Notes: generated from the letters alone by a model not told the origin. 64,000 nucleotides of DNA from an uncultured Oscillospiraceae bacterium (GCA_947588955.1 CANPYX010000004.1:6421-70420), one strand, 5' to 3'. Counted from the stretch's first letter, positions 30,029 through 30,500 are shown. Made by a program: numbers and translations.

Positions 30029-30057
30029 TTGACAAAATAAGACCCACGCCGTATAAT
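30029..30057 (+). promoter_or_regulatory. perfect consensus promoter TTGACA-17-TATAAT
   Basis: TTGACA at 30029-30034, 17-nt spacer, TATAAT at 30052-30057. Confidence 0.7.
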
Positions 30058-30180
30058 AGCGGCATGGGCTTCCCCGCAAGGGGGAGGATCGGGAGTACCC
30101 GATCTGGAGATCTCCGTTCCTTTAAAACGGGGCGGTTAAAAAGACGGTGCCGATAACCCGCGAAAGCGGGAGGGAGGCGT

Positions 30181-30321
30181 GTGACAGCTTTCGCGGGAAA
30201 TTTTCCCGAAAGGAGGCTGGTACATATCACTGTTACACTGTTGGAGATCCTCGGCGCTGCCGGTGCCGTGGCCAGCATTGTTTCCTTAGCGCTCTATCTG
30301 CGCGACAGGAAAAGGAAGTGA
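30181..30321 (+). CDS. small hydrophobic peptide, type I toxin-like (start uncertain)
   Basis: Manual translation: (V)TAFAGNFPERRLVHITVTLLEILGAAGAVASIVSLALYLRDRKRK. GGGAGGGAGG lies before GTG 30181. A second SD, AAAGGAGG at 30209, sits in a hairpin arm. Confidence 0.3.
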   Translation: MTAFAGNFPERRLVHITVTLLEILGAAGAVASIVSLALYLRDRKRK

Positions 30322-30421
30322 GCCGTCTGTCGCAATCAGACGGCTCACTGTTTGGTTTGGGGCTGCAACCCCGAGCTAAATAGTTGGTACGTACACTTGT
30401 GGCACCGTTTAACGGTCTCCA
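30310..30421 (-). ncRNA. candidate antisense RNA (type I antitoxin-like), inferred from promoter and terminator only
   Basis: A - strand consensus promoter at 30428-30456 fires toward the peptide gene 3' end. The transcript would share the 30318-30348 hairpin. Confidence 0.35.
30318..30358. terminator. 12-bp-stem hairpin plus T-rich tail, usable from both strands
   Basis: GTGAGCCGTCTG-TCGCAAT-CAGACGGCTCAC, then TGTTTGGTTT. On the - strand it is followed by TTCCTTTTCC. Confidence 0.65.
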
Positions 30422-30427
30422 CCCATT

Positions 30428-30456
30428 ATTATACGGTCAGGGTCACGAAATGTCAA
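30428..30456 (-). promoter_or_regulatory. perfect consensus promoter TTGACA-17-TATAAT on the - strand
   Basis: On the - strand: TTGACA (30456-30451), 17-nt spacer, TATAAT (30433-30428). Confidence 0.65.
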
Positions 30457-30463
30457 TACCTTT

Positions 30464-30500
30464 CCCGCTGTCTTTACGGACGGCGGGAATTTTATTTTAT
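30464..30500 (+). terminator. intrinsic terminator-like hairpin plus AT/T-run upstream of the rSAM operon
   Basis: CCCGCTGTC-loop-GACGGCGGG (9 bp, one G-U), then AATTTTATTTTATT. Confidence 0.5.

What the first reader, a model, noticed from the sequence alone, without database searches (positions are those of the whole stretch)
30029..30500. Convergent perfect-consensus promoters around a small hydrophobic peptide: type I toxin-antitoxin-like module next to the rSAM operon
A + strand TTGACA-17-TATAAT promoter (30029-30057) precedes a ~115-nt leader rich in hairpins, including a GNRA hairpin CCCGC-GAAA-GCGGG. A long stem in the leader buries an AAAGGAGG. Next comes a 31-46 codon ORF ending ...LLEILGAAGAVASIVSLALYLRDRKRK, then a 12-bp-stem terminator. 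A second perfect TTGACA-17-TATAAT promoter on the - strand (30456-30428) fires back toward the peptide gene's 3' end and could use the same hairpin as its terminator. That would give a ~110-nt antisense RNA overlapping the mRNA 3' end. This layout mirrors 3'-overlapping type I TA systems known from Bacillus and Clostridioides prophages. Two perfect consensus promoters within 430 bp of GC-rich DNA are unlikely to be accidental.
Basis: partly seen in the sequence, partly recalled or inferred. Interest (0 to 1): 0.7.

Follow-up and report, generated by a model that had tools for sequence, protein, structure and literature searches.

The report
Small toxin-antitoxin-like RNA cassette in prophage
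A 460-base cassette in a prophage tail region pairs a tiny membrane-peptide gene with an opposing small RNA gene, and it belongs to a widespread, so far unnamed family in gut Clostridia that is built like known RNA-controlled (type I) toxin-antitoxin systems.

Summary
Two perfect TTGACA-17-TATAAT promoters face each other 400 bp apart; shuffles of the 64-kb window expect none. Between them lie a highly structured leader, a small ORF for a hydrophobic peptide with a K/R-rich tail, and a 13-bp hairpin that can terminate both strands.

The type I toxin-antitoxin reading is supported in silico and gains from comparison. The peptide belongs to a family of at least 106 protein clusters. All seven distinct loci found through the protein alone keep the full layout, in unrelated genomic contexts. 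So the position next to the rSAM operon is incidental.

The ORF is under purifying selection (dN/dS about 0.13-0.45). Its likely start is AUC 30226, the codon that is AUG in the commonest relatives. The leader holds a three-part switch, with covariation for both competing helices, that buries the Shine-Dalgarno sequence.

Every intact peptide gene has the antisense promoter, and antisense-only copies exist. No Rfam, Pfam, NCBIfam, PADLOC or PHROGs model matches. The layout is closest to par (Fst/RNA II), but the peptide lacks the Fst motif and no second complementary region reached significance. Transcription, toxicity and neutralisation are untested.

Verdict: a new family of a known kind.

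The parts
30016..30027 (.). Left arm of a perfect 12-nt inverted repeat (TAAAGACAGCGG) just outside the -35 box of P+. Homology between the window and L005/L017 begins here.
30029..30057 (+). P+, the promoter of the peptide mRNA (TTGACA-17-TATAAT, 12/12). The transcription start is inferred at about 30064.
   Evidence: P+ scores 10-12/12 at the same place in 33 complete relatives.
30042..30069 (-). Terminator-like hairpin plus CUUAUUUUGU on the - strand, overlapping the -10 box of P+. It could stop antisense read-through.
   Evidence: -18.2 kcal/mol. The hairpin is kept in L017 with changed pairs (read directly from the sequence).
30064..30225 (+). Structured 5' leader of the peptide mRNA. It includes two 5' hairpins with GCAA and AGUA loops (30069-30104) that are specific to the window's subgroup.
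30157..30170 (+). Hairpin A (CCCGC-GAAA-GCGGG). Bases 30157-30167 are also the 5' arm of stem B, the anti-anti-SD.
30187..30197 (+). Anti-SD segment GCUUUCGCGGG. It pairs either with 30157-30167 (stem B) or with the Shine-Dalgarno region.
   Evidence: Stem B has double changes in 5 of 11 pairs. The SD-sequestering helix has them in 3 of 3 pairs. Minimum-energy partners are given.
30212..30216 (+). Shine-Dalgarno GGAGG, 9 nt upstream of AUC 30226. Its predicted probability of being unpaired is 0.01.
30226..30321 (+). Peptide ORF: 31 codons from AUC 30226 (translated (M)TVTLLEILGAAGAVASIVSLALYLRDRKRK) plus the TGA stop. An alternative in-frame GTG start at 30181 gives 46 codons.
30317..30349 (.). 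Shared bidirectional hairpin (13 bp, 7-nt loop). The stop codon lies in its 5' arm. The K/R codons just upstream read as the U-tract of the antisense terminator.
30305..30421 (-). Predicted antisense small RNA (~117 nt): a 5'-terminal hairpin, a variable linker, the hairpin GGGGUUGCAGCCCC and the shared terminator.
30428..30456 (-). P-, the promoter of the antisense RNA (TTGACA-17-TATAAT, 12/12).
   Evidence: It is conserved in 7 of 7 protein-ascertained loci and accompanies 37 of 37 intact peptide genes.
30462..30499 (+). Second + strand intrinsic terminator (11-12-bp stem, then UUUUAUUUUA). It contains the right arm of the inverted repeat (30465-30476).

Best explanation
This is a self-contained type I toxin-antitoxin-like cassette of about 460 bp (30016-30499), carried as a passenger in a prophage tail-fibre region.

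Peptide mRNA. P+ makes an mRNA of about 290 nt. It would be about 430 nt if it reads through the weak + strand terminator to the second one. A 160-nt structured leader holds the Shine-Dalgarno sequence (30212-30216) in a helix with an upstream anti-SD segment (30187-30197). That segment can instead be captured by an anti-anti-SD (30157-30167), and the anti-anti-SD is itself locked in a local GNRA hairpin. The default fold is therefore translationally silent.

Peptide. The product is a 31-residue single-helix membrane peptide with a +4 K/R tail. It most likely starts at the near-cognate codon AUC 30226, which would keep translation very low.

Antisense RNA. P- makes a small RNA of about 117 nt that ends at the same hairpin. 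It is perfectly complementary to the 3' end of the mRNA: the terminator hairpin with its hypervariable loop, plus the last codons.

Inferred action. By analogy with par/Fst, txpA/RatA and bsrG/SR4, loop-loop contact and duplex formation at the 3' end lead to degradation or stable silencing of the peptide mRNA. Convergent transcription may add interference.

Inferred role. The cassette may stabilise the prophage or other carrier element, or act in abortive or stress responses.

Status of each step. Shown in silico: the promoters, the structure and its covariation, coding selection, and conserved linkage of the two genes. Inferred and untested: transcription, toxicity, neutralisation and the biological role.
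For: Promoters.
- Both promoters are perfect consensus, with none expected by chance.

The peptide is real.
- An exhaustive HMMER search found 16 representatives at E <= 1e-3.
- A profile search found 106 clusters, one of them seen on 584 contigs.
- dN/dS is mostly 0.13-0.45 over 25 codons; the window against L017 gives 0.23.
- The window and L005 differ by an in-frame 3-nt indel and conservative hydrophobic replacements.
- The Kyte-Doolittle 19-residue maximum is 2.08, and the tail RDRKRK carries a net charge of +4.

The architecture is conserved whatever the context.
- L005, L011, L012, L017, L086, L087 and L090, all found through the protein, have P+, the leader motifs, the K-rich tail, the hairpin and a convergent P- of 11-12/12.
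- Their neighbours differ: Band_7/CBAH, MFS/MurJ, HGD-D, and Bro-N/resolvase.
- A related prophage, L007, lacks the cassette at this site.

The leader switch.
- Stem B forms standard pairs in 94.7% of cells, against 31-42% when the partners are slid, and 5 of its 11 pairs show double changes.
- The SD-sequestering helix shows double changes in 3 of 3 pairs.
- The SD is predicted paired in 18 of 18 modules.

Linkage of the two genes fits toxin-antitoxin logic.
- All 37 intact peptide genes have P- at 10/12 or better.
- 19 loci keep P- with a disrupted peptide gene.
- L084 and L086 carry extra antisense-only copies.

Other points.
- The 68 modules show 31 different terminator loops on the same stem, which fits a specificity determinant.
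- The literature records non-canonical start codons and SD sequestration as known brakes on type I toxins (PMC8167048).
- The par layout is convergent promoters plus a shared bidirectional terminator (PMC7472228).
Against: - There is no expression, toxicity or neutralisation data of any kind.
- Outside the 3' overlap, complementarity between the antisense RNA and the mRNA is not significant (for the window p = 0.115). A translation-blocking contact like DRa/DRb of par is therefore not shown for this subgroup.
- The peptide matches no known toxin family in Pfam or PADLOC.
- A near-cognate start codon could instead mean that the peptide is barely made, or that some copies are decaying.
- Most of the wider family sample was collected with the terminator sequence itself, so the apparent invariance of the stem is partly an effect of how the sample was gathered.
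- The + strand hairpin has a poor U-tract (GUUUGGUUUG), so the true 3' end of the mRNA is uncertain.
Confidence: 0.75

Rival explanations
1. The cassette encodes a non-toxic small membrane protein, such as a modulator of a membrane complex or a superinfection-exclusion factor. Its level is tuned by a cis-antisense RNA and a structured leader. The layout resembles a type I TA system but there is no addiction or killing function.
For: - Toxicity is untested.
- Many members use near-cognate start codons and still show purifying selection, which a low-abundance functional peptide would also give.
- Chromosomal copies are widespread and stable; P0070 appears in 640 blocks of the collection.
Against: - The asymmetric linkage fits a harmful product better: antisense-only copies and tandem antisense amplification exist, but there are almost no peptide genes without the antisense promoter.
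- Several layers of repression act on one 31-residue peptide.
- A hydrophobic helix plus a poly-K/R tail is the typical make-up of type I toxins (PMC6563280).
Confidence: 0.15
2. The leader is a sensing RNA, such as a riboswitch or thermosensor. The main regulation is by a signal acting on the leader, and the antisense RNA is secondary.
For: - Two mutually exclusive helices share one segment, and both show covariation.
- Long unpaired stretches are highly conserved in sequence, for example GGAAUGGAGGCGUGU and AAAAGACGGUUGCCUG.
- The fold is far more stable than shuffles (z = -6.2).
Against: - No Rfam family matches.
- Metastable SD-sequestering leaders are usual in type I toxin mRNAs without any ligand (PMC8167048).
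- No ligand pocket or gene-context clue points to a metabolite, since the genomic contexts are unrelated.
- Forcing stem B costs about +9.8 kcal/mol in the window, so something strong would be needed to flip the switch.
Confidence: 0.07
3. There is no function here. The promoters are chance or remnant matches and the ORF is spurious, or the region is a pure non-coding RNA.
For: No direct expression data exist. Gene callers miss the ORF in L005.
Against: - No perfect promoter is expected by chance.
- The family has 106 clusters.
- dN/dS is below 1.
- Both promoters are conserved at fixed distances in unrelated contexts.
Confidence: 0.03

Closest known systems
par of Enterococcus faecalis pAD1 (Fst toxin mRNA RNA I with antitoxin RNA II; Fst/Ldr superfamily)
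   Same: - Convergent promoters and a shared bidirectional intrinsic terminator whose complementary hairpins give the RNA-RNA contact.
- A toxin mRNA of about 230-290 nt with an internal stem that hides the Shine-Dalgarno sequence and with a structured 5' end.
- A peptide of about 30 residues with one transmembrane helix and a charged tail.
- Copies found on mobile elements and on chromosomes (PMC7472228).
   Different: - The peptide has no PXXXG, DXXXG, SXXXG or TXXXG motif, and no Pfam hit to any toxin family at E <= 10.
- Its tail is purely cationic (K/R).
- The antisense RNA is about 115-145 nt, against about 40-65 nt for RNA II.
- No significant second complementary region equivalent to DRa/DRb was found in the window's subgroup.
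- A longer antisense class in relatives instead carries an anti-SD sequence, CCUCCCCG.
- The start codon is often near-cognate.
bsrG/SR4, txpA/RatA and bsrE/SR5 of Bacillus subtilis prophages and prophage-like elements
   Same: - Prophage location and convergent genes overlapping at their 3' ends.
- A hydrophobic peptide with a lysine-rich C-terminus.
- A structured toxin mRNA with restricted access to the SD.
- An expected mechanism of antisense-triggered degradation, with or without an effect on translation (my own knowledge, plus PMC6563280).
   Different: - No sequence similarity was detected.
- The overlap here is short (about 50 nt) and centred on a shared terminator, rather than 75-120 nt of 3' UTR.
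- The leader switch and the near-cognate start codon are not features described for those systems.
Clostridioides difficile type I TA modules (CD0956.2/RCd10, CD2517.1/RCd8 and prophage phiCD630-1 modules)
   Same: - Found in class Clostridia and often in prophages.
- Convergent overlapping toxin and antitoxin genes.
- Peptides of 30-56 residues with a hydrophobic N-terminal part and a lysine-rich C-terminus.
- A proposed role in maintaining mobile elements (PMC6563280; PMC7699646, listed).
   Different: - A tblastn search with the window's peptide against 50,697 phage records, a collection expected to include C. difficile phages, found nothing at E <= 10.
- The host lineage is different and GC-rich (Oscillospiraceae-like).
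- The C. difficile pairs share long complementary regions, whereas here the overlap is essentially the terminator.
aapA1/IsoA1 (Helicobacter pylori) and hok/sok: toxin mRNAs governed by alternative folds
   Same: The primary transcript is held in a translationally inert fold by SD sequestration, and competing helices decide whether the SD is accessible (PMC8167048).
   Different: In those systems the antisense RNA overlaps the 5' or translation-initiation region and 3' processing activates the mRNA. Here the antisense gene is at the 3' end and no processing signal is known.

Membership tests
Type I toxin-antitoxin system (generic) | Small (<60 aa) hydrophobic peptide with a predicted transmembrane helix | tested here: met
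   The peptide has 31 residues (46 from the alternative start). The Kyte-Doolittle 19-residue maximum is 2.08 (LLEILGAAGAVASIVSLAL), and the tail RDRKRK has a net charge of +4.
Type I toxin-antitoxin system (generic) | The peptide ORF is a real, selected coding sequence | tested here: met
   dN/dS is mostly 0.13-0.45. There is an in-frame indel. The family has 106 clusters.
Type I toxin-antitoxin system (generic) | A cis-encoded antisense RNA gene with its own promoter, overlapping the toxin mRNA | tested here: met
   This was tested in silico only. P- scores 12/12, the terminator is shared, and the RNA is about 117 nt. The arrangement is conserved in 7 of 7 protein-ascertained loci. Expression was not measured.
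Type I toxin-antitoxin system (generic) | Overexpressed peptide is toxic (membrane damage or growth arrest) | not testable with these tools
   This needs inducible expression.
Type I toxin-antitoxin system (generic) | The antisense RNA neutralises the toxin by blocking translation or degrading the mRNA | not testable with these tools
   Only indirect evidence exists: 37 of 37 intact peptide genes have P-, and antisense-only copies occur.
par / Fst-RNA II family | Convergent promoters sharing a bidirectional intrinsic terminator | tested here: met
par / Fst-RNA II family | Direct repeats (DRa/DRb) that give a second complementary region over the translation initiation site | tested here: inconclusive
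   The best local complementarity in the window does fall on the SD-to-start region (30206-30244 against 30369-30409), but p = 0.115. Only about 5 of 18 modules place their best hit there. Helix and duplex scans do not exceed shuffles.
par / Fst-RNA II family | PXXXG (or D/S/TXXXG) motif in the transmembrane helix; similarity to the Fst toxin | tested here: not met
   The peptide contains no proline, and the residue four before each glycine is L or G (read from the sequence). No Pfam toxin family matched at E <= 10.
par / Fst-RNA II family | An intramolecular stem sequestering the SD of the toxin mRNA | tested here: met
   The helix is supported by covariation. The SD is predicted unpaired with probability 0.01 in the window and 0.40 or less in 18 of 18 modules.
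Known riboswitch or cis-regulatory RNA classes (Rfam 15) | Match to a curated covariance model | tested here: not met
   Nothing in the window reached the gathering score except tRNA. In 29900-30600 only chance-level matches appeared, with E of 6 or more. Fourteen related loci gave no match.
CXXX-repeat rSAM maturase operon (as a functional part of it) | Consistent co-occurrence of the cassette with the rSAM system | tested here: not met
   Relatives of the cassette sit in unrelated contexts. A related rSAM locus, L007, lacks the cassette.

The most novel reading that the evidence does not exclude
The conserved 160-nt leader may be more than a passive lock. Its three-part switch (anti-anti-SD, anti-SD, SD) shows covariation for both competing helices and has long invariant unpaired stretches. 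It could be a new class of signal-responsive cis-regulatory RNA that gates translation of a membrane peptide from a near-cognate start codon. A related puzzle is that the peptide mRNA and the antisense RNA begin with the same-sense motif (GUGGAAACC...GGUUGCC), which tends to change in parallel within a module. That could be a shared recognition element for one host factor, such as an RNase or an RNA chaperone, that controls both partners.
Probability: 0.12. Interest if true: 0.75.

Novelty: new member of a known kind. Interest (0 to 1): 0.5.

Why it matters
Type I toxin-antitoxin systems are hard to find by homology. In Clostridia they are essentially known only from C. difficile. This cassette reveals a large family in gut Oscillospiraceae-like bacteria and their mobile elements: at least 106 peptide clusters, with one variant seen on hundreds of metagenome contigs. 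No Rfam, Pfam, NCBIfam, PADLOC or PHROGs model covers the family.

The family gives annotators a defined signature to search for:
- two consensus promoters facing each other;
- a conserved leader;
- a start site (ACAUAU followed by a variable fourth base) that is often near-cognate;
- a K-rich tail whose codons double as the U-tract of the antisense terminator;
- a terminator stem of conserved sequence with a hypervariable loop.

It also offers a natural series of AUG and non-AUG start variants for studying how toxic peptides are kept silent. For this prophage, it suggests a maintenance or defence passenger gene inserted in the middle of the tail-fibre and rSAM gene block.

Tried and rejected
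- Known RNA families. Rfam found nothing at the gathering score on the whole window, at E <= 10 on 29900-30600, or on 14 related loci.
- Viral contigs. Four scans of IMG/VR with neighbouring proteins, the peptide or leader words gave nothing or a chance coding hit. The terminator pattern gave two loci there.
- Annotated collections. GenBank phages and PLSDB plasmids gave no match by blastn or tblastn.
- Reference genomes. A GTDB scan with the neighbouring 141-aa protein found only L005's MAG.
- A second antisense-mRNA pairing site. RNAduplex, an ungapped helix scan, sliding windows and Smith-Waterman alignment with shuffles were not significant.
- GTG 30181 as the true start, and the upstream ATGGAGGCG as a leader peptide. 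Both are rejected as the conserved solution. The upstream stretch is read in different frames in different members. L068 has an in-frame TGA immediately before the SD. The window and L005 differ there only by non-synonymous changes that fit RNA pairing.
- A functional link to the rSAM operon. Rejected.
- A MITE-like element. The 12-nt terminal inverted repeat is shared only by the window's subgroup, and no target-site duplication was seen. This is left open.
- Host identification by exact protein look-up gave no names.

Full report
**1. The observation**

- Perfect TTGACA-17-TATAAT promoters lie at 30029-30057 (+) and 30456-30428 (-).
- The whole 64-kb window has four such sites, against 0.00 expected from 100 dinucleotide-preserving shuffles.
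- A third perfect site, 36929-36901 (-), sits directly upstream of tRNA-Ser. The host therefore uses this consensus.

Between the two promoters lie four features.
- A leader that folds much better than shuffles: -138.8 kcal/mol, z = -6.2.
- An ORF at 30181-30321 ending ...SLALYLRDRKRK.
- A 13-bp hairpin with a 7-nt loop at 30317-30349, terminator-like on both strands.
- A second, canonical + strand terminator at 30462-30489 followed by UUUUAUUUUA.

A - strand terminator-like hairpin (30069-30042) overlaps the -10 box of P+. Each promoter is thus backed by a terminator for the opposing transcript. A perfect 12-nt inverted repeat (30016-30027 and 30465-30476) brackets the unit.

**2. Context**

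The window's left part is a prophage integrated at tRNA-Ser. A partial copy of the tRNA 3' end lies at 36631-36641.

The cassette sits among tail-fibre genes:
- a collagen-like fibre protein, 27241-28896;
- two cysteine-rich CXXX-repeat proteins, 28901-29989 and 33975-34973;
- a 141-aa partner protein, 30530-30955;
- a TIGR04115 CXXX-repeat radical SAM maturase, 30952-32274 (463.7 bits against a cut-off of 350).

The adjacency is incidental.
- A low-GC relative of this gene block (L007) joins the CXXX protein gene to the partner gene by a 35-nt spacer, with no cassette.
- A closer relative (L005, an Oscillospiraceae MAG) has the cassette behind a different upstream gene. Homology starts exactly at the left inverted repeat.

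**3. The peptide is real and belongs to a large family**

- An exhaustive HMMER search of 1.84 billion representatives with the 46-residue translation gave 16 hits at E <= 1e-3.
- A profile built from these found 106 clusters.
- The conserved core is ...IHIT-STILTVLGALGSIASIVSLVLYL-xD(K/R)KK.
- Over 25 aligned codons dN/dS is mostly 0.13-0.45. The window against L017 gives dN 0.157 and dS 0.682.
- The window and L005 differ by an in-frame 3-nt indel, six synonymous changes and conservative hydrophobic replacements.
- The peptide has one strongly hydrophobic 19-residue span (Kyte-Doolittle 2.08) and a +4 tail.
- It matches no Pfam, NCBIfam, PHROGs or PADLOC family. The only near-hit is a sub-threshold resemblance to the membrane-anchor end of LPXTG proteins, which reflects composition.

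**4. Where translation starts**

- Many family members are 29-30 residues and begin with ATG, for example MTSALLTVLGALGS... (P0070, 584 contigs). That ATG is exactly where the window has ATC 30226.
- The site lies 7-9 nt after a strong GGAGG.
- Across subfamilies the codon is ATG, ATC, ATA, ATT or ACG.
- Upstream of it the conservation is at the nucleotide level and is read in different frames in different members.
- In L068 an in-frame TGA immediately precedes the Shine-Dalgarno sequence, and no canonical start exists before the membrane helix.

I therefore take AUC 30226 (31 codons) as the likely start. GUG 30181 (46 codons) remains an in-frame alternative specific to the window's lineage. 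Near-cognate starts are a recognised brake on type I toxins (PMC8167048).

**5. The layout is conserved**

All seven distinct loci found through the protein alone keep the same parts. These loci are L005, L011, L012, L017, L086, L087/L089 and L090. The shared parts are:
- P+ at 10-12/12;
- the leader motifs;
- the K-rich tail;
- the same hairpin, with small stem variants;
- a convergent P- at 11-12/12.

Their neighbours are unrelated.

A scan of metagenome contigs with the terminator sequence brought 65 more loci. These carry several quite different hydrophobic peptides, all ending in a few K/R residues, and mostly have a perfect P- at a fixed distance.

Among 68 unique instances with enough flanking sequence:
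- all 37 with an intact peptide gene have P- at 10/12 or better (34 at 11/12 or better);
- 19 keep P- although the peptide gene is disrupted.

L084 carries one full module followed by tandem antisense-only repeats, and L086 has an extra antisense copy. This asymmetry is what a harmful gene guarded by an RNA would produce.

The terminator stem's apparent invariance is partly caused by using it as bait. The loop shows 31 variants in 68 modules, and it is one of four blocks that differ between the otherwise near-identical window and L005.

**6. The leader**

An alignment of 19 diverse mRNAs (A6) shows a conserved multi-helix leader. Two mutually exclusive helices both carry covariation.
- Stem B (window 30157-30167 with 30187-30197) has double changes in 5 of 11 pairs. 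Its cells form standard pairs 94.7% of the time, against 31-42% when partners are slid.
- The helix joining the same middle segment to the Shine-Dalgarno core has double changes in 3 of 3 pairs.

The 5' arm of stem B is itself locked in the local hairpin CCGC-loop-GCGG, often with a GNRA loop: GAAA in the window, GUGA in L005 and GCAA in L017.

Thermodynamic folding predicts the Shine-Dalgarno sequence to be paired in 18 of 18 modules. In the window the probability of being unpaired is 0.01. Forcing stem B there costs about 9.8 kcal/mol. The default state is therefore off. What turns it on is unknown.

**7. The antisense RNA**

It starts with a conserved 5'-terminal hairpin: GUGGAAACC...GGUUGCCAC in most members and UGGAGACCG...CGGUGCCA in the window. 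A variable linker follows, then a second hairpin and the shared terminator.

The lysine codons AAAAAGAAG at the end of the ORF read CUUCUUUUU on the other strand. They therefore supply the U-tract of the antisense terminator (read directly from the sequences). This explains why the stop codon sits inside the hairpin.

A longer antisense class (L011 type, with AUG starts) has an extra 5' hairpin containing CCUCCCCG, which is complementary to its own Shine-Dalgarno sequence CGGGGAGG. The window's short class lacks it.

For the window, complementarity outside the 3' overlap is not significant. Its best local match does fall on the SD-to-start region.

**8. Mechanism, and which steps are shown**

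Shown in silico:
- the promoters and terminators;
- the leader switch;
- coding selection on the ORF;
- conserved linkage of the two genes.

Inferred:
- the antisense RNA pairs with the 3' end of the mRNA, starting at the complementary loops, and causes degradation or silencing, as in par, txpA/RatA and bsrG/SR4;
- the peptide damages the membrane when it is made;
- the cassette stabilises its carrier or acts in defence.

**9. Comparison with known systems, and novelty**

The layout is closest to par/Fst: convergent promoters, a shared terminator and an SD-hiding stem (PMC7472228). Membership of the Fst family fails on the peptide motif, and the DRa/DRb equivalent is not shown. The cassette also parallels the prophage-borne 3'-overlap systems of Bacillus and C. 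difficile (PMC6563280), but without detectable homology. Three literature searches found no description of this family.

I rate it a new family of a known kind.

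Noticed in passing
window 28901-29989, 30530-30955, 30952-32274, 33975-34973: A prophage tail-fibre block encodes two cysteine-rich CXXX-repeat proteins with a shared N-terminal domain, a TIGR04115 'CXXX-repeat target' radical SAM/SPASM maturase (463.7 bits) and a small partner protein. 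This suggests that phage tail or receptor-binding proteins are cross-linked by a RiPP-type maturase. The same block occurs in L005 and in a low-GC relative, L007.
   Followed up: partly
window 36631-36641 and 36773-36929: The prophage end lies at tRNA-Ser(GGA) (36773-36864, - strand), which is driven by a perfect consensus promoter (36929-36901). A partial copy of the tRNA 3' end (TTCGAACCCTC) lies about 130 bp inside and looks like the attachment-site repeat. Two small membrane proteins (36117-36360 and 36365-36540, holin-like by appearance) lie just before it.
   Followed up: partly
window 61458-61582: The fourth perfect TTGACA-17-TATAAT promoter (61554-61582, +) follows a strong bidirectional-looking terminator (61458-61497). 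It points into the 3' end of a 494-aa ORF on the opposite strand (61600-63084). This could be another antisense or non-coding transcript. No Rfam family matched.
   Followed up: no
L084:3070-3600 (- strand; 10369-11265 in the orientation used) and L086:1392-1470: One full module is followed by tandem 243-bp repeats that hold only the antisense promoter, the antisense RNA and the terminator. L086 likewise has an extra orphan antisense gene upstream of its module.
   Followed up: partly
window 30104-30152 vs 30401-30421; family alignments A6 and A7: The peptide mRNA leader and the antisense RNA carry the same-sense motif (GUGGAAACC...GACGGUUGCC; in the window UGGAGA..CCGUU..GACGGUGCC). Variants of it often change in parallel within a module (the window, L005, L012, L023, L068, L087). 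Because the motif has the same sense in both RNAs, the two copies cannot pair with each other. The cause is unexplained; it could be gene conversion between the two promoter-proximal regions or a shared binding site.
   Followed up: partly
L002 and L003 (contig ends at about window 30122): Two independent short-read assemblies of the same element break inside the variable leader block (30107-30156). This hints at strain-level heterogeneity there.
   Followed up: no
window 30016-30027 / 30465-30476: The left arm of the 12-nt inverted repeat lies upstream of P+, so only transcripts arriving from the upstream tail genes contain it. In such transcripts it could pair with the 5' arm of the second + terminator and prevent termination before the rSAM genes. 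This is speculative.
   Followed up: no
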